Source: a virus
Taxonomy: Duplodnaviria > Heunggongvirae > Uroviricota > Caudoviricetes
Strand: one strand, 5' to 3'
IMG/VR virus record: IMGVR_UViG_2547132488_000010
Span: 1-7,545 of that record
Length of the DNA: 7,545 nt
A program made the translations under genes and the position numbers. Below the pieces are notes generated by a model. That model was not told the origin of the DNA. It saw only the letters and a list, made by a program, of their open reading frames with translations, and did no database searches. Of the stretch, positions 29-7,545 are shown one piece after another (position 1 is the stretch's first letter; every line of letters begins with the position of its first letter).

Positions 29-799
29 ATGACCACACCAAATCCACTGGCAAAGACGAAAGGTGCGGGGACAACGTTCTGGATGTATACCGGCAACGGC
101 GATGCGTTTGCGAACCCTTTGTCGGACACTGCCTGGCTGCGTCTTGCGATGGTGAAGGATCTGCAACCTGGCGAAATGACCGCTGATGCAGAAGATGACA
201 CGTATCTTGATGATGAGAATGCGGACTGGAAGAGCACATCTCAGGGCCAGAAAACCGCTGGCGATACGTCTGCCACACTGGCATGGCGTCCGGGCGACAG
301 CGGACAGAAAAAACTGGTTGAGTTGTTTTATTCCGGCGAGGTTTGTGCGTTTCGCATTCTGTACCCCAACGGCACAGTTGATGTTTTTCGTGGCTGGTTG
401 AGTTCGCTGGGCAAGGCGGTGACGTCAACGGAAGTGATGACCCGGACCATCAAAATCACTGGGATTGGGCGTCCGTACCTGGCGGAAGAGTGTCAGGAGG
501 TGGTCAGCGTCACCGGTGTGACGGTGACACCGACGGCGGTGACACTGCACCCTGGTGAAACGTCCGTACTGACGTTTGCGCTTGTACCGGAAAACGCCTC
601 GGATAAAACGCTCACGGTGTTTTCCACGGATCCGCAGACAGCAACGGTAAGCCTGAGCGGCCTTGTGGCTACGGTATCTGCCCGCCAGGAAGGTGTGGTC
701 AATATTGTGGGTATGAGCGGTAATGGCAGTACGGGGCAGGTGGTCACGGTGACCGTGGCCCCTGCTGAGGAGAAGAGTACCGGACGCGCCCGGGGATAA
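29..799 (+). CDS. V: Major tail tube protein (lambda gpV family) with C-terminal Ig-like (Big_2-type) domain
   Basis: ORF track 23..799 begins at GTG 23, but ATG at 29 sits 5 nt after a strong AAGGAGG, so 29 is the likelier start. The translation (PLAKTKGAGTTFWMYTGNGDAFANPLSD ... NGTVDVFRGWLSSLGKAVT) aligns along its length with lambda gpV as I recall it. C-terminal part is Thr/Val-rich (VTVTPTAVTLHPGETSVLTFALVP...). Stop TAA 797-799. Confidence 0.92.
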   Translation: MTTPNPLAKTKGAGTTFWMYTGNGDAFANPLSDTAWLRLAMVKDLQPGEMTADAEDDTYLDDENADWKSTSQGQKTAGDTSATLAWRPGDSGQKKLVELFYSGEVCAFRILYPNGTVDVFRGWLSSLGKAVTSTEVMTRTIKITGIGRPYLAEECQEVVSVTGVTVTPTAVTLHPGETSVLTFALVPENASDKTLTVFSTDPQTATVSLSGLVATVSARQEGVVNIVGMSGNGSTGQVVTVTVAPAEEKSTGRARG

Positions 800-859: not shown

Positions 860-1249
860 ATGTTTCTGAAACAGGATACGTTTAATTACGGCAATCAGTC
901 GGTGGTACTGAATGAACTGTCTGGTCTGCAGCGTGTGGAATACCTGGCTTATGCCCGTGAACGCGCGGCGCAGTTTGATGAGGCTTCTGCAGGAATGGAA
1001 GAAGGGGCCCGCCAGATTGCTTTTATGGAAATGGGGATGGACATCAACGCTTGGCTGGTTTCCCGTTCGTTGTGGAATGCCGACCAGTCTCAGAATGTGG
1101 CGGCGCTTTTTTCCTCCGTGCGCGTGACATGGTCCTGGGATGCGCTGGGGGTGGCGGCGGAAAGCATTCTGGCGCTGAGCGGTATGGCACTGACAGTGGC
1201 GACAGAGGGGGATGATGTGAAGGAGGTGCTGACGCCGGAAAAGTCCTGA
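860..1249 (+). CDS. G: Tail assembly chaperone G (lambda gpG family)
   Basis: 129 aa ORF starting MFLKQDTFNYGNQSVVLNELSGLQRVEYLA, similar to the lambda gpG N-terminus (MFLK...LSELSALQRIEHLA). GGAG 8 nt upstream of the ATG. Position between V and the tape measure is as expected. Stop TGA 1247-1249. Confidence 0.9.
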   Translation: MFLKQDTFNYGNQSVVLNELSGLQRVEYLAYARERAAQFDEASAGMEEGARQIAFMEMGMDINAWLVSRSLWNADQSQNVAALFSSVRVTWSWDALGVAAESILALSGMALTVATEGDDVKEVLTPEKS

Positions 1250-1572
1250 CGCAGGAAATGCAGTTTGTCATGCGGCTGGCCCGGGAGTTCCGGCGGGGCG
1301 ACTGGCGGCGAATGCTGTCAGAAATGTCAGCCACAGAACTGGGAGAGTGGGGGGATTATTTCCGGCGGCAGAGTTTCAGTGATGTGTGGCTGGATGCGCA
1401 ATTTGCCACACTGAAAACGCTGATTGTGCAGATGGTTTCCGGAAAAACCGTAGCGGCGGATATGTTCAGCCTGTTGCCCTCAGAGACAGAAGCGCTCGTC
1501 CGGACAGATGAAGAACTGATGTTTCTGGGGGAAGGTATCGCGGGAGGAATAAGAATTGAGCCAGATAGCTGA
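860..1572 (+). CDS. GT: Tail assembly chaperone G-T fusion made by programmed -1 ribosomal frameshift near the 3' end of G (T-specific part about 1216/1240 to 1572)
   Basis: The -1 frame relative to G is open from 1216 (after TGA 1213-1215) through stop TGA 1570-1572 and encodes 1258..1572 in the track (MQFVMRLAREFRRGDWRR...). This matches the conserved G/GT arrangement of long-tailed phages. The exact shift position is not determined. Confidence 0.7.
1237..1243 (+). promoter_or_regulatory. Candidate -1 frameshift (slippery) site for G-T
   Basis: In the G frame: CCG GAA AAG TCC TGA. GGAAAAG at 1237-1243 lets tRNA-Lys on AAG re-pair with AAA in the -1 frame. It lies 4 nt before the G stop and inside the 1216-1246 overlap of the two frames. 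Not the canonical lambda GGGAAAG. Confidence 0.4.
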
Positions 1573-2440
1573 TCTTGTTATTGATTTAAGTGTTGATGCG
1601 GCTGATTTTAAGGAACAGCTTCCGCGTATCAAAGCACAGCTCAACGGTACCGCCAGCGAAGCGGCGCGTGCGGAGGCGCGGGTCAGGCAGTTTGAAGCGA
1701 GTCAGAAGCAGGCGGCGACCACCGCAGTGAAACAGGCTCAGGCGCTGGCAGGGAATGCGCAGAAGCATGTTTCGCTGGCGGAGAATGTGGAGAAGACCCG
1801 TCAGCGACTTGATGCCCTGAACCGGAAAATGCGCGAGGAGCAGGCGCAGGCGGCGGCACTGGCTGCTGCTCAGGATAAAGCCGCTGCTGCATTTTACCGT
1901 CAGATTGACAGTGTGAAACAGGCGGGGGCCGGACTGCAGGAGCTGCAGCGTATTCAGCAGCAGGTCCGTCAGGCCAGAAACAATGGTGGCATCGCGCAGC
2001 AGGATTATCTGGCGTTAATCTCCGAAGTGACGGCAAAAACCCGCGTGCTGGCTCAGGCTGAAGAATCCGCCGCCCGCCAGAAGACGGCCTTTATCCGGCG
2101 GCTGAAGGAGCAGGTATCCGCTCAGAATCTTTCATCCACGGAGCTGCTCAGGGCAAAAGCCGCGCAGCTGGGTGTCAGTAGTGCGGCTGAGGTGTATATC
2201 AGCAAAATGGAAAAAGCCGGGAAGGTCACGCATTCGCTGGGGCTGAAAAGTGCGGCGGCCCGCCAGGAGATGGGTGTTCTGATAGGTGAAATTGCCCGGG
2301 GTAATTTCGGTGCGCTTCGTGGCTCCGGGATCACCCTGGCTAACCGTGCCGGCTGGATTGATAAATTAATGACTCCGAAAGGCCTGGCGGTGGGGGGGGG
2401 TTATCGGAGGGATCACTGCTGCGGTTATTGGTCTGGGTAA
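1556..2440 (+). CDS. H: Tail tape measure protein, N-terminal segment (first of two ORFs of a frame-disrupted H-like gene)
   Basis: Begins MSQIADLVIDLSVDAADFKEQ, resembling the lambda gpH N-terminus (MAEPVGDLVVDLSLDAARFDEQ). Apparent TTG start at 1556 with GGAGG 8 nt upstream; the frame only opens at 1553. Overlaps the T stop. A/Q/R-rich predicted coiled coil. Frame ends at TAA 2438-2440, just after the G9 tract. Confidence 0.85.
   Translation: MSQIADLVIDLSVDAADFKEQLPRIKAQLNGTASEAARAEARVRQFEASQKQAATTAVKQAQALAGNAQKHVSLAENVEKTRQRLDALNRKMREEQAQAAALAAAQDKAAAAFYRQIDSVKQAGAGLQELQRIQQQVRQARNNGGIAQQDYLALISEVTAKTRVLAQAEESAARQKTAFIRRLKEQVSAQNLSSTELLRAKAAQLGVSSAAEVYISKMEKAGKVTHSLGLKSAAARQEMGVLIGEIARGNFGALRGSGITLANRAGWIDKLMTPKGLAVGGGYRRDHCCGYWSG
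2392..2400 (+). repeat. Homopolymeric G9 tract at the junction of the two tape-measure ORFs
   Basis: tGGGGGGGGGtt read directly from the sequence. Upstream ORF is in frame 2, downstream ORF in frame 0; the downstream frame is open from 2373. Confidence 0.95.
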
Positions 2441-2447
2441 AGCCTGG

Positions 2448-4589
2448 ATGGAGGGGCGGGAAGAAGGCGAAGCCTTTAACCGGCAGCTTGAGCTCACCGG
2501 ACACTATGCCGGTGTGACAGTCGGGCAGTTGTGGGCGCTCAGTAAAAATCTTTCCGGTAATGGCATCACGCAACATGCCATGGCGGGGTCACTGGCGCAG
2601 GTAGTGGGGAGCGGTGCATTTCACGGTAACGATATTGGTATGGTGGCGAAAGCTGCCGCACAGATGGAACGCTCGGTAGGGCAGTCTGTCAGTGACACCA
2701 TCAGTCAGTTTAAACGGCTGAAGGATGATCCGGTCAGTGCTGCGAAGGCGCTGGATGATGAACTGCATTTTCTGACAGCCACCCAGCTTGAACAGATCCG
2801 TGTGCTCGGAGAGCAGGGGCGCACCAGTGACGCCGCCCGGATAGCCATGTCTGCACTGGCAGAGGAAACCGGTAAACGTACGTCGGATATTGATAATAAC
2901 CTCAATGCGCTGGGCAGTACGCTGCAAACCTTGTCTGACTGGTGGAAGCAGTTCTGGGATGCGGCCATGAACATTGGTCGGGAAGATTCCCTTGATGCGC
3001 AGATTGCGTCGCTGCAGGAAAAAATTCAGCGGGCGAAGAAATTTCCGTGGACTAAGGCGTCCACCACGGTGGAATACGATCAGCAACAACTGGATGCGCT
3101 GCAAGAGCGAAAGCGCCAGCAGGATTTGCAGGATGCAAAAGAGCAGGCTGAGCGAAATTATCAGGAGCAGCAGAAACGCCGGAATGCTGAAAATGCCGCG
3201 CTGAACCGGATGAACGAAACGGAAGCAGCACGACATCAGCGTGAAATTGCGCGTATTAATGCCATGCAGTACGCCGATCAGGCGGTCAGGGACGCAGCGA
3301 TACAGCGTGAAAATGAACGTTACGAAAAAGCCATTAAGAAAAAAACATCTGAAAACCGCAATGATGAAGCTACCCGGTTGCTGTTGCAGTACAGTCAGCA
3401 GCAGGCGCAGGTGGAGGGGCAGATCGCCGCCGCCAGACAGTCCGCGGGACTGACCACGGAAAAAATGACGGAAGCGCATAAGCAGCTTCTGGCCCTGCAG
3501 CAGCGTATCAGTGATTTAGCCGGTAAAAAGCTGACGGCAGATGAAAAAAGCGTGCTGGCGCATAAGGATGAACTGATTCAGGCGCTGACGCTGCTGGATG
3601 CAAAACAGCAGGAGCTGCAGAAGCAGACGGCGCTGAATGACCTTAAGAAAAAATCTATTCAGCTTGCCAGCCAGCTGGCGGAAGAGGAACGGACTCTGCG
3701 TCAGCAACATGACCTGGATATCGCCACGACAGGGATGGGGGATAAACAGCGTCAGCGATACCAGGCGCAGTTCAGTCTGCAACAAAAATACCAGCAGCAA
3801 CTGGAACAGCTGGAGCGTGACAGTAAGCAGAAAGGAACATACGGCACAGATGAATACCGGAATGCTGAGCAGATGCTGACAGACAGTCTTAACCGGCAAC
3901 TGAACGAAAACAGACGTTACTGGCAGGAGCAGGAACTGATGCAGGCAGACTGGAAAAACGGTGCCATGCGGGCGTTTCAGAATTTTACAGAGAGTGCGGA
4001 TAACGCGGCAGGTACCGCTGAGCAGATGTTTACAGCGGCATTTAACAGCGCAGGTAATGCACTGGCGACGTTCTGTACCACCGGAAAACTGAACTTCAAA
4101 TCCTTTACCGCCTCGCTCCTTTCTGATCTAGCAAAAATCATGTCGCAGATGGCCATGATGCAGGCAGTTAAGGGGATTGGTTCGGCGTTTGGCTGGGGGA
4201 GTGCAGCAGCTGCCAGCGTGACGCCAAATGCGGATGGCGGTGTTTATCAGTCTGCTGATTTGAGTCGCTACAGTGGCACGGTGGTTAACCGTCCGACGTT
4301 TTTTGCTTTTGCAAAAGGCGCGGGTGTGATGGGAGAAGCGGGGCCTGAAGCCATTCTGCCACTGCGTCGTGGTGCTGATGGCAAGCTGGGAGTTGTGGCG
4401 GATATTGGTGGTTCAGGTATGGTGATGTTTGCCCCGCAGTACAACATCGAGATCAATAACGATGGTACGAACGGGCAGATAGGTCCGGCTGCCCTGAAGG
4501 TGGTTTATGACCTCGGGAAAAAAGCAGCAGCGGACTTTATGCAACAGCAGTCCCGTGATGGTGGTCAGTTAAGCGGAGCGTATCGGTAA
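2448..4589 (+). CDS. H: Tail tape measure protein, C-terminal segment (second ORF of the frame-disrupted H-like gene)
   Basis: 713 aa from the first ATG, but the frame is open from 2373 and encodes a Gly-rich hydrophobic stretch (VIGGITAAVIGLGKAW) before that ATG. Q/E/R-rich coiled-coil core. C-terminus ...INNDGTNGQIGPAALKVVYDLGKKAAADFMQQQSRDGGQLSGAYR matches the lambda gpH C-terminus (...INNDGTNGQIGPAALKAVYDMARKGARDE...RDGGLFSGGGR) as I recall it. Stop TAA 4587-4589. Confidence 0.88.
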   Translation: MEGREEGEAFNRQLELTGHYAGVTVGQLWALSKNLSGNGITQHAMAGSLAQVVGSGAFHGNDIGMVAKAAAQMERSVGQSVSDTISQFKRLKDDPVSAAKALDDELHFLTATQLEQIRVLGEQGRTSDAARIAMSALAEETGKRTSDIDNNLNALGSTLQTLSDWWKQFWDAAMNIGREDSLDAQIASLQEKIQRAKKFPWTKASTTVEYDQQQLDALQERKRQQDLQDAKEQAERNYQEQQKRRNAENAALNRMNETEAARHQREIARINAMQYADQAVRDAAIQRENERYEKAIKKKTSENRNDEATRLLLQYSQQQAQVEGQIAAARQSAGLTTEKMTEAHKQLLALQQRISDLAGKKLTADEKSVLAHKDELIQALTLLDAKQQELQKQTALNDLKKKSIQLASQLAEEERTLRQQHDLDIATTGMGDKQRQRYQAQFSLQQKYQQQLEQLERDSKQKGTYGTDEYRNAEQMLTDSLNRQLNENRRYWQEQELMQADWKNGAMRAFQNFTESADNAAGTAEQMFTAAFNSAGNALATFCTTGKLNFKSFTASLLSDLAKIMSQMAMMQAVKGIGSAFGWGSAAAASVTPNADGGVYQSADLSRYSGTVVNRPTFFAFAKGAGVMGEAGPEAILPLRRGADGKLGVVADIGGSGMVMFAPQYNIEINNDGTNGQIGPAALKVVYDLGKKAAADFMQQQSRDGGQLSGAYR

Positions 4590-4918
4590 TGGAAACTTTT
4601 CACTGGAAAATTCGCCCTGATATGACTGTGGCATCGGAGCCGAAGGTGGTGACAGTGAAGCTGGGCGATGGTTATGAACAGCGTCGTGCGGCGGGACTGA
4701 ATAACCAGTTGTCGACTTACAGCGTGACGATACGTGTTCGTAAATGTGAACACCCATCTTTAAAAGCCTTTCTGGAACGGCACGGTGGCGTCCGCGCATT
4801 TCAGTGGACGCCACCTTATGACTGGAAGCCGATCAGGGTGGTTTGTCGTAAATGGTCGGCAAGCGTGGGGGCGTTGTGGGTAACCATAACGGCAGATTTT
4901 GAACAGGTCGTGGCATAG
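4589..4918 (+). CDS. M: Minor tail protein M (lambda gpM family)
   Basis: METFHWKIRPDMTVASEPKVVTVKLGDGYEQRRAAGLNNQLSTYSVT..., similar to lambda gpM (MKTFRWKVKPGMDVASVPSVRKVRFGDGYSQRAPAGLNANLKTYSVT...). ATG overlaps the H stop (TAATG), consistent with translational coupling. Confidence 0.92.
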   Translation: METFHWKIRPDMTVASEPKVVTVKLGDGYEQRRAAGLNNQLSTYSVTIRVRKCEHPSLKAFLERHGGVRAFQWTPPYDWKPIRVVCRKWSASVGALWVTITADFEQVVA

Positions 4919-4927
4919 GAGGCTCTG

Positions 4928-5626
4928 ATGCAGGATATTCCACAGGAAACACATCATGAGACGACACGCTTCACTCAGTCAGCCCAGGTGGTGCTCTGGG
5001 AAATCGACCTGACAGAGGTCGGTGGTGAACGTTATTTTTTCTGTAATGAGCAGAACGAAAAAGGTGAGCCGGCCACCTGGCAGGGGCGACAGTATCAGGC
5101 GTATCCCATTCAGGGGAGCGGTTTTGAACTGAACGGCAAGGGCAGTGCTGCCCGTCCGACACTGACGGTCTCTAACCTGTACGGCATGGTCACCGGGATG
5201 GCGGAAGATCTGCAGAGTCTGGTCGGCGGAACGGTGGTCCGGCGTAAGGTTTACGCCCGTTTTCTGGATGCGGTGAACTTCGTCAACGGAAACAGCGAAG
5301 CCGATCCGGAGCAGGAGATTATCAGCCGCTGGCGCATCGAGCAGTGTAGCAATTTAACAGCGGTAAGTGCCTCCTTTGCACTGTCCACGCCGACGGAAAC
5401 GGATGGCGCTGTTTTTCCGGGACGTATCATGCTGGCCAACACCTGCACCTGGACCTATCGCGGTGATGAGTGCGGTTATCACGGTCCGGCGGTCGCGGAT
5501 GAATATGACCAGCCGACGTCCGATATCACGAAGGATAAATGCAGCAAATGCCTGAGTGGCTGTAAGTTTCGCAATAACGTCGGCAACTTTGGCGGCTTCC
5601 TTTCCATTAACAAACTTTCGCAGTAA
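4928..5626 (+). CDS. L: Minor tail protein L (lambda gpL family), C-terminal cysteine cluster
   Basis: 232 aa, same length as lambda gpL. AGGAGG at 4917-4922 overlaps the M stop, 5 nt before the ATG. Cys at residues 173, 182, 205, 208, 212 (NTCTWTYRGDECGY ... DKCSKCLSGC). Confidence 0.92.
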   Translation: MQDIPQETHHETTRFTQSAQVVLWEIDLTEVGGERYFFCNEQNEKGEPATWQGRQYQAYPIQGSGFELNGKGSAARPTLTVSNLYGMVTGMAEDLQSLVGGTVVRRKVYARFLDAVNFVNGNSEADPEQEIISRWRIEQCSNLTAVSASFALSTPTETDGAVFPGRIMLANTCTWTYRGDECGYHGPAVADEYDQPTSDITKDKCSKCLSGCKFRNNVGNFGGFLSINKLSQ

Positions 5627-5631
5627 ATCCC

Positions 5632-6375
5632 ATGACAGAGACAGAATCAGCGATTCTGGCGCACGCCCGGCGATGTGCGCCAGCGGAGTCGTGCGGCTTC
5701 GTGGTGAGAACGCCGGAGGAGGAAAGATATTTTCCCTGCGTGAATATCTCCGGTGAACCGGAGGATTATTTCCGGATGGCTCCGGAGGACTGGCTGCGGG
5801 CCAAAATGCAGGGTGAGATTGTGGCGCTGGTCCACAGTCACCCCGGTGGTCTGCCCTGGCTGAGTGAGGCTGACCGGCGGCTGCAGGTGCAGAGTGATTT
5901 GCCGTGGTGGCTGGTCTGCCGGGGTGAGATTCACAAGTTCCGCTGTGTGTCGCATCTCACCGGGCGTCGCTTTGAGCACGGGGTGACGGACTGTTACACG
6001 CTGTTCCGGGATGCTTACCATCTGGCGGGGATTGAGATGCCGGATTTTCATCGCGGGGATGACTGGTGGCGTAACGGTCAGAATCTCTATCTTGACAATA
6101 TGGAGGCGACGGGTTTTTACCGTGTCGCACTGACAGAGGCGCAGCCGGGCGATGTGCTGCTGTGCTGCTTTGGATCATCGGTGCCGAATCATGCCGCCAT
6201 TTACTGTGGCGGCGGCGAGCTGCTGCACCATATTCCTGAACAACTGAGCAAACGAGAGAGGTACACCGACAAATGGCAGCGACGCACACACTCCCTCTGG
6301 CGTCACCGGGCATGGCACGCATCTGCCTTTACGGGGATTTACAACGATTTGGCCGCCGCATCGATCTGCGTGTGA
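5632..6375 (+). CDS. K: Tail tip assembly protein K (lambda gpK family), MPN/JAMM-like plus NlpC/P60-like domains
   Basis: JAMM-type motif visible as HSHPGGLPWLSEAD (H-x-H-x7-S-x2-D). Downstream Cys and His (VTDCYTLF, NHAAIY, ELLHHIPEQ) fit an NlpC/P60-type Cys-His-His arrangement. C-terminus ...LLHHIPEQLSKRERYTDKWQRRTHSLWRHRAW... matches lambda gpK as recalled. Starts 5 nt after the L stop. Confidence 0.9.
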   Translation: MTETESAILAHARRCAPAESCGFVVRTPEEERYFPCVNISGEPEDYFRMAPEDWLRAKMQGEIVALVHSHPGGLPWLSEADRRLQVQSDLPWWLVCRGEIHKFRCVSHLTGRRFEHGVTDCYTLFRDAYHLAGIEMPDFHRGDDWWRNGQNLYLDNMEATGFYRVALTEAQPGDVLLCCFGSSVPNHAAIYCGGGELLHHIPEQLSKRERYTDKWQRRTHSLWRHRAWHASAFTGIYNDLAAASICV

Positions 6376-6920
6376 AAACGGGGGCCGAAGCCATCCGGGC
6401 GCTGGCCATGCAGATCCCGGCGTTTCGTCAGAAGCTGAGCGACGGCTGGTATCAGGTACGCATTGCCGGGCGGGATACAGGCGAAAACGAATTATCTGCC
6501 CGTCTTAATGAGCCGCTGGCAAATGGTGCAGTGATCCACATCGTACCGCGTCTGGCGGGTGCCAAAAGTGGCGGTGTGTTTCAGGCTGTGCTGGGGGCTG
6601 CGCTGATTGCGGTGGCATGGTGGAACCCTGTGGGCTGGCTGGGTGCCGCGGCTGTATCGGGTATGTATGCGGCAGGGGCCAGTATGATCCTGGGCGGTGT
6701 GGCGCAGATGCTGGCACCGAAAGCCAGAACTCCCCGCACACAGGCAACAGATAACGGCAAACAGAACACCTATTTCTCCTCACTGGATAACATGGTTGCA
6801 CAGGGTAATTCGCTGCCGGTGCTGTATGGCGAAATGCGCGTGGGGTCGCGGGTGGTTTCTCAGGAGATCAGCACGGCAGATGAAGGTGATGGTGGTCAGG
6901 TTGTGGTGATTGGTCGCTGA
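6273..6920 (+). CDS. I: Tail tip assembly protein I (lambda gpI family)
   Basis: MAATHTLPLASPGMARICLYGDLQRFGRRIDLRVKTGAEAIRALA... and C-terminus ...KQNTYFSSLDNMVAQGNSLPVLYGEMRVGSRVVSQEISTADEGDGGQVVVIGR are near-identical to lambda gpI as I recall it. Overlaps the 3' end of K by 103 nt in another frame. Alternative in-frame ATG at 6312 has no obvious RBS. Confidence 0.88.
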   Translation: MAATHTLPLASPGMARICLYGDLQRFGRRIDLRVKTGAEAIRALAMQIPAFRQKLSDGWYQVRIAGRDTGENELSARLNEPLANGAVIHIVPRLAGAKSGGVFQAVLGAALIAVAWWNPVGWLGAAAVSGMYAAGASMILGGVAQMLAPKARTPRTQATDNGKQNTYFSSLDNMVAQGNSLPVLYGEMRVGSRVVSQEISTADEGDGGQVVVIGR

Positions 6921-6938
6921 TGAAAAACGTTTTATGTG

Positions 6939-6958
6939 AAACCGCCTCCGGGCGGTTT
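6939..6958 (+). other. Intergenic stem-loop between I and J (possible terminator or RNA stability element)
   Basis: AAACCGCC (6939-6946), TCCG loop, GGCGGTTT (6951-6958): a perfect 8-bp stem, with the T-run partly inside the stem and followed by TGTCGTT. Confidence 0.35.
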
Positions 6959-6979
6959 TGTCGTTATGGAGCGTGAGAA

Positions 6980-7545
6980 ATGGGTAAAGGCAGCAGTAAG
7001 GGGCATACCCCGCGCGAAGCGAAGGACAACCTGAAGTCCACGCAGTTGCTGAGTGTGATTGATGCCATCAGTGAAGGGCCGATTGAAGGTCCGGTGGATG
7101 GATTAAAAAGCGTGCTGCTGAACAGTACACCGGTGCTGGACAGTGAGGGGAATACCAACATCTCCGGTGTCACGGTGGTGTTCCGGGCAGGTGAGCAAGA
7201 GCAGACACCGCCGGAGGGATTTGAATCCTCCGGCTCCGAGACGGTGCTGGGTACGGAAGTGAAATACGACACGCCGATCACCCGGACCATCACGTCTGCA
7301 AACATCGACCGTCTGCGCTTTACCTTCGGTGTGCAGGCACTGGTGGAAACCACCTCAAAGGGGGACCGGAATCCGTCGGAAGTCCGCCTGCTGGTTCAGA
7401 TCCAGCGTAATGGTGGCTGGGTGACGGAAAAAGACATCACCATTAAGGGCAAAACCACCTCGCAGTATCTGGCCTCGGTGGTGGTGGGTAACCTGCCGCC
7501 GCGCCCGTTCAATATACGGATGCGCAGGATGACGCCGGACAGCAC
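6980..7545 (+). CDS. J: Tail tip / host specificity protein J (lambda gpJ family), 5' partial, runs off the window
   Basis: I translated the frame from ATG 6980 by hand: MGKGSSKGHTPREAKDNLKSTQLLSVIDAISEGPIEGPVDGLKSVLLNSTPVLD..., with no stop to the window end. This matches the lambda gpJ N-terminus as recalled. GGAG 8 nt upstream. Absent from the ORF track only because it lacks a stop in the window. Confidence 0.93.
   Translation, partial: MGKGSSKGHTPREAKDNLKSTQLLSVIDAISEGPIEGPVDGLKSVLLNSTPVLDSEGNTNISGVTVVFRAGEQEQTPPEGFESSGSETVLGTEVKYDTPITRTITSANIDRLRFTFGVQALVETTSKGDRNPSEVRLLVQIQRNGGWVTEKDITIKGKTTSQYLASVVVGNLPPRPFNIRMRRMTPDS

What the first reader, a model, noticed from the sequence alone, without database searches (positions are those of the whole stretch)
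2373..2448. Tape-measure gene is split at a G9 homopolymer; removing one G restores a single ORF of about 1010 aa
The N-terminal ORF (1556..2440, frame 2) and the C-terminal ORF (frame 0, open from 2373 to 4589) overlap only across 2373-2440, and the nine-G run at 2392-2400 lies inside that overlap. With eight G the junction reads ...KGLAVGG-VIGGITAAVIGLGKAWMEGREEG..., a continuous Gly-rich hydrophobic segment that looks like genuine protein. Four explanations fit: a homopolymer sequencing or assembly error, a real inactivating mutation in a decaying prophage, a slippage-prone tract giving phase-variable tail production, or recoding by transcriptional or ribosomal slippage. Without an intact tape measure no tail is made, so which one applies decides whether this phage is viable.
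Basis: partly seen in the sequence, partly recalled or inferred. Interest (0 to 1): 0.75.

Follow-up and report, generated by a model that had tools for sequence, protein, structure and literature searches.

The report
One-G insertion splits prophage tape-measure gene
A lambda-like E. coli prophage has its tail tape-measure gene broken by one extra G in a run of eight; the same broken allele turns up in many independent datasets, so it is a real, ordinary slippage mutation rather than a sequencing error or programmed recoding.

Summary
There is a G9 run at 2392-2400. ORF 1556-2440 and the frame open from 2373 to 4589 overlap only across that run. Removing one G gives a 1010-aa protein.

That repaired protein is an existing E. 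coli tape-measure protein, WP_096997849.1, listed in 66 blocks of the public collection. Two contigs carrying it match the whole 7,545-nt window except for G8 in place of G9. G8 is therefore the intact parental state.

G9 is not a one-off artefact:
- The exact 294-aa truncated ORF occurs on at least 17 contigs from several projects.
- One substitution (4449A) was found only on G9 contigs; another (733A) was seen only on G9 contigs among those compared.
- A G7 allele also exists.

More distant relatives interrupt the tract (GGGGGGAG, CGGCGGGG) and are in frame. All 120 best homologues are single proteins of 1009-1010 aa. The break falls inside the Pfam TMP_2 domain. I found no frameshift-stimulating signals.

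Best reading: a synonymous GGA>GGG change created a G8 hot spot, and a +1 replication slippage then produced a heritable frameshift allele. This prophage lineage is tail-defective but has no other lesion in the regions compared. Rescue by reversion or low-level leakiness is possible but unproven. The finding is ordinary and of low interest.

The parts
2392..2400 (+). G9 homopolymer, the site of the +1 G insertion. Intact siblings have G8, one contig has G7, and more distant relatives have GGGGGGAG or CGGCGGGG.
1556..4589 (+). Whole lambda-gpH-type tail tape-measure gene, disrupted by the frameshift. With G8 it encodes 1010 aa, identical to WP_096997849.1.
1556..2440 (+). N-terminal fragment ORF of 294 aa: 281 native residues plus a 13-aa out-of-frame tail (GYRRDHCCGYWSG). 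It stops at TAA 2438-2440. It is annotated as ENE18730.1 in E. coli P0304799.3.
2373..4589 (+). C-terminal reading frame, open from 2373 after TGA at 2370-2372. The first start codon is ATG 2448, giving 713 aa, 7 nt after the upstream stop and without a clear Shine-Dalgarno sequence. The precomputed annotation lists hits to all three Pfam families on this fragment, but in the repaired protein the TMP_2 match begins at residue 217, upstream of the break.
2330..3300 (+). Mosaic segment inside the gene (approximate bounds). It is 98-100% identical to RM11911-type tape-measure genes, whereas 1556-2300 and 3300-4589 follow the MB06234 type. The G tract lies just inside the left junction.
860..1572 (+). 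Tail assembly chaperone genes G (860-1249) and T (1258-1572, in the -1 frame relative to G), directly upstream of the tape-measure gene.
4589..7545 (+). Downstream tail-tip genes M (4589-4918), L (4928-5626), K (5632-6375), I (6273-6920) and the start of J (about 6980 onwards). All are identical to those of G8 siblings.

Best explanation
This is a genuine, heritable +1 G insertion in the tail tape-measure gene of a lambda-like E. coli prophage. It most likely arose by replication slippage at a G8 homopolymer. The inferred history has three steps. A recombinant patch brought in a Gly-Gly-Val coding stretch reading GTG GGG GGA GTT. A synonymous GGA>GGG change turned it into an uninterrupted G8 run, which is the intact and commoner allele. 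One further G was then added. With G9, translation ends 13 codons after the run, giving a 294-aa N-terminal fragment. The remaining 70% of the protein is out of frame. The cut falls inside the hydrophobic Gly-rich segment and inside the conserved TMP_2 domain. From lambda biology, the G9 prophage should be unable to build tails, and it would be carried vertically by its host. Because the tract is itself mutable, G9>G8 revertants should arise at low frequency, and a trace of spontaneous +1 ribosomal slippage on the G run could occur. Neither is a programmed mechanism. Shown here: the sequence, the allele series, its reproducibility, and the absence of conservation or stimulatory signals. Inferred: the slippage mechanism, the tail-less phenotype, and reversibility.
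For: (1) Contigs L035 (Logan SRR5185888, standing for 16 further similar places) and L036 (NCBI GCA_044931585.1) are identical to all 7,545 nt of the window except G8 for G9. (2) The repaired 1010-aa protein is exactly WP_096997849.1. It was counted on 31 contigs and is listed in 66 blocks of the collection. (3) The exact 294-aa truncated ORF was found on 17 contigs. These include ENA assemblies ERZ28620082, ERZ28644791, ERZ28644121, ERZ27289100, ERZ19661733 and ERZ1034949, and Logan runs SRR18174213, ERR4899719 and ERR2933045 (that contig seen in 11 samples). Every contig that extends far enough also shows the downstream ORF beginning at the same ATG (713 aa where it is complete). (4) G9 contigs carry substitutions of their own. 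733A is in L010 and L011, from different projects. 4449A is in L009 and L006. The full-length G8 protein with the 4449A change is absent from the collection, while the G9 C-fragment with it is on 3 contigs. (5) The same projects yield both alleles: VATA22-2 samples, and ERZ1035001 (G8) versus ERZ1034949 (G9). The pipelines therefore resolve the two lengths. (6) A 319-aa protein in the collection equals the simulated G7 allele residue for residue, which marks the tract as a hot spot. (7) Twenty more distant loci have GGGGGGAG and one has CGGCGGGG, all 8 nt and in frame. (8) All 120 best homologues are single proteins of 1009-1010 aa. TMP_2 spans residues 217-415, so the break at residue 281 cuts a domain. 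Lambda gpH aligns with both halves. (9) G9 contigs show no other indel against a G8 contig over 8.9 kb. (10) Indel rates in E. coli rise exponentially with homopolymer length (PMC8510543).
Against: No raw reads could be inspected, so the G count in this particular assembly (GCA_000357685.2) is not directly verified. It rests on the same allele and haplotype recurring in other runs. No expression or phenotype data exist, so the tail-less phenotype is inferred. A G9 contig (L004/L007) shares a mosaic patch in gene L with G8 contigs (L037/L038). That could mean repeated switching rather than a single mutation followed by recombination. The frameshifted alleles make up a sizeable minority of this lineage's occurrences, which is high for a lethal phage defect unless carriage is mostly vertical.
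Confidence: 0.8

Rival explanations
1. Sequencing or assembly error. The true sequence of this strain has G8, and the ninth G is a homopolymer miscall in this 2013 draft assembly.
For: Siblings identical over all 7,545 nt have G8. Homopolymers are the classic site of indel miscalls. The sequencing platform of this assembly is unknown to me, and no reads were available.
Against: The same G9 on the same haplotype appears in at least four other independent runs (L005, L012, L013, L014). It also appears on further haplotypes in other projects, 17 contigs in all. G9 contigs carry linked substitutions (733A, 4449A), and the 4449A change was not found on any G8 protein. The same projects report G8 in other samples. 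Even if this one assembly were wrong, the allele itself is real.
Confidence: 0.07
2. Phase-variable (contingency) switch. The G tract is maintained because reversible G8/G9/G7 slippage turns tail production on and off, to the benefit of phage or host.
For: Three tract lengths (G7, G8, G9) occur in otherwise identical genes. The out-of-frame alleles are a sizeable minority. A mosaic patch in gene L is shared by G8 and G9 contigs. G8-G9 tracts are mutable.
Against: The tract is not conserved. Relatives interrupt it (GGGGGGAG in 20 loci, CGGCGGGG in one), so it looks like a recent accident of a synonymous change. The 4449A substitution is found only with G9, not with G8, as expected for a stable lineage rather than rapid toggling. 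No in-frame G5 or G11 alleles and no G6, G10 or G12 alleles were found. No benefit of a tail-off state is evident.
Confidence: 0.08
3. Recoding. Full-length tape measure is made from the G9 template by programmed +1 ribosomal frameshifting, or by transcriptional slippage that drops one G.
For: A +1 slip of tRNA-Gly on GGG GGG G would re-pair perfectly and would give the native protein sequence. Low-level compensatory frameshifting on a G string is documented for herpes simplex thymidine kinase mutants (PMC5009743). Only a few tape-measure copies are needed per tail.
Against: The out-of-frame arrangement is not conserved. All diverged relatives are in frame. The codon after the slip position is the common GGT, not a slow or stop codon. 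I saw no separate Shine-Dalgarno-like element placed upstream of the run (reading). The downstream fold is not better than shuffles (z = -1.45, 19 of 200 shuffles as good). There is no Rfam match. In E. coli transcriptomes all homopolymer insertions were in A or T runs, and G/C runs were judged not prone to slippage (PMC5574713). Any rescue would be adventitious and of low level, not programmed.
Confidence: 0.04
4. A natural two-gene arrangement, with the tape measure encoded as two separate polypeptides that both function.
For: A stop at 2438-2440 followed 7 nt later by ATG 2448 could allow coupled reinitiation. The precomputed annotation lists all three Pfam families on the 713-aa fragment.
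Against: Every one of the 120 best homologues is a single protein of 1009-1010 aa. The break falls inside TMP_2 (residues 217-415) and inside the hydrophobic segment. Lambda gpH covers both halves in one chain. The arrangement differs from intact siblings by a single base.
Confidence: 0.01

Closest known systems
Phage lambda gpH (tail length tape-measure protein) and its E. coli prophage homologues such as WP_096997849.1
   Same: Same gene position (V-G-T-H-M-L-K-I-J). The Pfam domains TMP_2, TMP_4 and Tape_meas_lam_C are present. The protein is collinear with lambda gpH at the N-terminus and from residue 281 to the end. The repaired protein is 100% identical to WP_096997849.1.
   Different: In the window the gene is interrupted by a +1 frameshift. 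The protein would be 1010 aa against lambda's 853 aa, with only 25% identity to lambda.
Herpes simplex virus thymidine kinase G-string mutants (one G added to or removed from a G7 run), with low-level compensatory ribosomal frameshifting (reviewed in PMC5009743)
   Same: A single-G indel in a run of G inactivates a viral gene. A slip on the G run could in principle restore the frame and give a little active protein.
   Different: That system is eukaryotic. The indel is selected by drug treatment and the leak has been measured. Here no selection for the indel is evident and no leak has been measured.
Poly-G/C contingency loci of Campylobacter, Neisseria and Haemophilus (phase variation by slipped-strand mispairing)
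   Same: Length polymorphism of a G tract (G7/G8/G9) switches a reading frame on and off among otherwise identical sequences.
   Different: The tract is not conserved among relatives. It arose from a recent synonymous change. The G9 lineage has at least one substitution of its own, which argues against rapid toggling. Repair-proficient E. coli is not known, to my knowledge, to use such loci.
The lambda G-T programmed -1 frameshift (tail assembly chaperone), present just upstream in this window
   Same: It is a frameshift in the tail-gene cluster, and it produces a protein that works with the tape measure (PMC5009743).
   Different: G-T frameshifting is conserved across long-tailed phages at a slippery heptamer, and both products are needed. 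The G9 site is a lineage-specific lesion in gene H with no conservation.
Defective (cryptic) lambdoid prophages of E. coli with mutationally inactivated structural genes
   Same: A prophage made unable to form particles by a point lesion and then inherited vertically. This is my own general knowledge, not tested here.
   Different: Here the lesion is the only one seen in the regions compared, so the element is at the very first step of inactivation and could revert.

Membership tests
Lambda gpH-type tail tape-measure protein | Pfam TMP_2, TMP_4 and Tape_meas_lam_C above their gathering scores | tested here: met
   TMP_2 158.1 bits (residues 217-415), TMP_4 64.6 bits, Tape_meas_lam_C 83.9 bits, on the repaired protein.
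Lambda gpH-type tail tape-measure protein | Collinear homology to lambda gpH over both ends of the protein | tested here: met
   residues 281-1010 align with lambda 113-853 (E = 9e-47), and residues 4-57 align with lambda 5-58 (E = 1e-8).
Lambda gpH-type tail tape-measure protein | Gene located between the G/T chaperone genes and gene M | tested here: met
   Phage_TAC_2 (860-1249) and Phage_tail_T (1258-1572) lie upstream. Phage_min_tail (4589-4918) lies downstream.
Lambda gpH-type tail tape-measure protein | One uninterrupted reading frame | tested here: not met
   G9 shifts the frame and a stop follows at 2438-2440. The feature is met in G8 siblings. The window therefore holds a frameshifted allele of a member gene.
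Programmed ribosomal frameshift site | Out-of-frame arrangement and shift site conserved among diverged relatives | tested here: not met
   relatives have an in-frame 8-nt stretch, usually interrupted. All 120 best homologues are single ORFs.
Programmed ribosomal frameshift site | Stimulatory context: a slow or stop codon in the A site, a correctly spaced upstream Shine-Dalgarno sequence, or a downstream structure | tested here: not met
   Sequence: the next codon is GGT, and I saw no separate upstream Shine-Dalgarno-like element; the downstream fold has z = -1.45; no Rfam match.
Programmed ribosomal frameshift site | Trans-frame protein product detected | not testable with these tools
   Needs proteomics, a western blot or a reporter assay.
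Transcriptional slippage site (bacterial) | Slippage-prone run, with A or T runs of about 9 or more being the documented substrate in E. coli | tested here: not met
   The run is G9. PMC5574713 found that all homopolymer insertions in E. coli were in A/T runs and that G/C runs were not prone to slippage.
Simple-sequence contingency (phase-variable) locus | Tract-length polymorphism among otherwise identical sequences | tested here: met
   G7 (1 contig), G8 (66 blocks) and G9 (17 contigs).
Simple-sequence contingency (phase-variable) locus | Tract maintained uninterrupted across related lineages | tested here: not met
   20 loci have GGGGGGAG and one has CGGCGGGG.
Simple-sequence contingency (phase-variable) locus | Repeated switching, seen as the same derived haplotypes in both ON and OFF states | tested here: inconclusive
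   4449A occurs only with G9. A mosaic patch in gene L is shared by G8 and G9 contigs, which recombination could also explain.
Simple-sequence contingency (phase-variable) locus | Measurable high-frequency switching within a clonal culture | not testable with these tools
   Needs deep amplicon sequencing or a reporter.
Sequencing artefact | Variant confined to one assembly and not reproducible | tested here: not met
   G9 is present on 17 contigs from several projects and assemblers.

The most novel reading that the evidence does not exclude
The G8/G9/G7 tract acts as a reversible on/off switch for tail production in a lambdoid E. coli prophage. Alternatively, a G9 prophage remains infectious at a low level through +1 ribosomal slippage on the G run. 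Either way a 'grounded' prophage could escape again, and the frameshifted state would be tolerated or even favoured in lysogens.
Probability: 0.1. Interest if true: 0.55.

Novelty: new member of a known kind. Interest (0 to 1): 0.2.

Why it matters
The split is a true allele, not a one-off assembly error, and it is a simple mutation, not recoding. For annotation, 1556-4589 should be treated as one frameshifted tape-measure gene rather than two genes. This prophage copy should be scored as probably tail-defective but otherwise intact in the regions compared. More generally, it is a clean natural example of the first step of prophage inactivation. A synonymous change created a homopolymer hot spot, and one-base slippage variants now circulate alongside the intact allele. 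It is also a reminder that finding intact close relatives does not prove that a homopolymer frameshift is an artefact.

Tried and rejected
- **Species-representative genomes:** an exact-pattern scan spanning the tract found nothing. The lineage is absent from the one-genome-per-species set.
- **Complete E. coli genomes:** the best match to 2200-2600 is only 94%. No complete RefSeq genome carries this mosaic allele, so there was no curated annotation to lean on.
- **Isolated phages:** the nearest is 81-84% identical. No cultured phage with this gene is available to show viability.
- **Direct look-up of the repaired protein's contigs:** It worked after the homologue search.
- **Other tract lengths:** look-ups of G5, G6, G10, G11 and G12, and of the G8 allele with the 4449A change, found none.
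- **Stimulatory RNA structure or known RNA family:** the downstream fold is not significant and there is no Rfam match.
- **Literature on tape-measure homopolymer frameshifts and on phage tail phase variation by poly-G**: nothing specific was found. A search for the strain name returned only a paper on the RADAR defence system.
- **Selection test on the downstream fragment:** not feasible. Only one substitution (4449 G>A, Glu>Lys) separates G9 variants within the gene.
- **Two-gene arrangement:** rejected because the break cuts the TMP_2 domain and all homologues are single chains.
Full report
**1. The observation**

The window is the tail module of a lambda-like prophage:
- V (23-799)
- G (860-1249)
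- T (1258-1572)
- the tape-measure gene (1556-4589)
- M, L, K, I and the start of J

These assignments rest.

Nine G occupy 2392-2400. ORF 1556-2440 encodes 294 aa. The downstream frame is open from 2373, after TGA at 2370-2372, and runs to 4589. Its first start codon is ATG 2448. The two frames overlap over 68 nt, and the run lies inside that overlap.

The run is the longest homopolymer in the window.

**2. What the gene is**

The repaired protein carries TMP_2 (residues 217-415), TMP_4 and Tape_meas_lam_C, all above the Pfam thresholds. It is collinear with lambda gpH at its N-terminus and from residue 281 to the end. All 120 best database homologues are single proteins of 1009-1010 aa.

The frameshift at residue 281 lies inside TMP_2 and inside the hydrophobic Gly-rich segment. 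The split is therefore a lesion in one gene, not a two-gene design.

**3. The intact parent exists and differs by one base**

The window is contig APZX01000190.1 of E. coli P0304799.3. The repaired protein is exactly WP_096997849.1. It was counted on 31 contigs and is listed in 66 blocks of the collection.

Contigs L035 (Logan SRR5185888, standing for 16 further similar places) and L036 (GCA_044931585.1) are identical to all 7,545 nt of the window except G8 instead of G9.

**4. G9 is nevertheless reproducible**

- The exact 294-aa truncated ORF occurs on 17 contigs from ENA metagenome assemblies of several projects and from Logan assemblies of individual runs. One of those contigs was seen in 11 samples.
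- All eleven fetched carrier loci (L004-L014) have G9 and are 99.7-100% identical to the window.
- The same projects also give G8 in other samples.
- G9 contigs have substitutions of their own. 733A is shared by L010 and L011, which come from different projects. 4449A is shared by L009 and L006.
- A full-length G8 protein with the 4449A change is not in the collection, whereas the G9 C-fragment with it is on three contigs.

An allele that is linked to its own substitutions and recovered by different assemblers is a heritable variant, not random miscalling. The G count in this particular assembly cannot be verified without reads. I give about 7% to the possibility that this one record is wrong.

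**5. Origin of the tract**

The gene is a mosaic:
- 1556 to about 2300 is about 100% identical to the MB06234 type.
- About 2330-3300 is 98-100% identical to the RM11911 type.
- The remainder follows the MB06234 type again.

The tract lies just inside the left junction. RM11911-type genes read GTG GGG GGA GTT. Twenty fetched loci have GGGGGGAG here, and MB06234 has CGGCGGGG.

A synonymous GGA>GGG change therefore created G8, and a further G gave G9. A 319-aa protein in the collection equals the simulated G7 allele exactly. G5, G6, G10, G11 and G12 alleles were not found.

Indel rates in E. coli rise exponentially with homopolymer length (PMC8510543). A G8 tract is thus an expected hot spot.

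**6. Mechanism and consequences**

The best explanation is replication slippage producing a frameshift allele. The predicted products are:
- a 294-aa N-terminal fragment with a 13-residue missense tail;
- at most, a poorly initiated 713-aa C-terminal fragment, starting at ATG 2448, 7 nt after the stop, with no clear Shine-Dalgarno sequence.

From lambda biology, tails should not form (inference). Nothing else is damaged. The window is otherwise identical to intact siblings, and G9 contigs show no other indel over 8.9 kb that include upstream head genes. The element is therefore newly disabled rather than decaying.

**7. Rival explanations**

Recoding:
- The out-of-frame arrangement is not conserved.
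- The codon after the slip position is the common GGT.
- The downstream fold is unremarkable (z = -1.45).
- There is no Rfam match.
- G/C runs were found not to be prone to transcriptional slippage in E. coli (PMC5574713).
- A trace of adventitious +1 slippage remains possible, as measured for herpes simplex thymidine kinase G-string mutants (PMC5009743). It would not be programmed.

Phase variation:
- The G7/G8/G9 series and a patch in gene L shared between G8 and G9 contigs are compatible with it.
- Against it, the tract is not conserved in relatives, and the 4449A substitution is confined to G9. That fits a stable lineage better than rapid toggling.

**8. Verdict**

This is a real but ordinary homopolymer frameshift in a prophage tape-measure gene, a new instance of a well-known kind of lesion. 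Its list of explanations contained the right one. Its rule that G8 relatives would prove an artefact was mistaken.

Noticed in passing
window 1235-1262: Gene G ends CCG GAA AAG TCC TGA, and T lies in the -1 frame. The likely G-T slip site is therefore G GAA AAG (1237-1243) rather than lambda's G GGA AAG. The same GGAAAAG occurs in the isolated phage PhiR40_1 (L003) and in other relatives.
   Followed up: partly
window 1556-4589: The tape-measure gene is a three-part mosaic. The outer parts are about 100% and 95-99% identical to the MB06234 type. The middle (about 2330-3300) is 98-100% identical to the RM11911 type. The frameshift tract sits just inside the left junction.
   Followed up: yes
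window 55-132 (V), 5296-5481 and 5467-5871 (L/K), 5925-5967 and 6138-6264 (K), 6473-6575 (I), 7198-7516 (J): Otherwise identical prophage copies differ by short clustered patches of substitutions, which look like gene-conversion tracts from other lambdoid prophages. One patch in gene L includes a compensated +1/-1 indel pair at 5350/5359.
   Followed up: partly
window 5632-6375 and 6273-6920: Gene callers disagree on the starts of K (247 versus 199 aa) and I (215 versus 182 aa) on identical DNA. The longer calls overlap by 103 nt.
   Followed up: no
cluster of the 294-aa protein (P0012, P0013, P0014): Other truncated or frameshifted versions of closely related tape-measure genes exist, for example a 302-aa form that diverges upstream of the G tract. 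Breakage of this long gene in E. coli prophages therefore does not appear to be rare.
   Followed up: no
whole window (source strain): The source strain, E. coli P0304799.3, appears in a paper on the RADAR anti-phage defence system (PMC9994260). The paper was not read. This has no apparent bearing on the finding.
   Followed up: no
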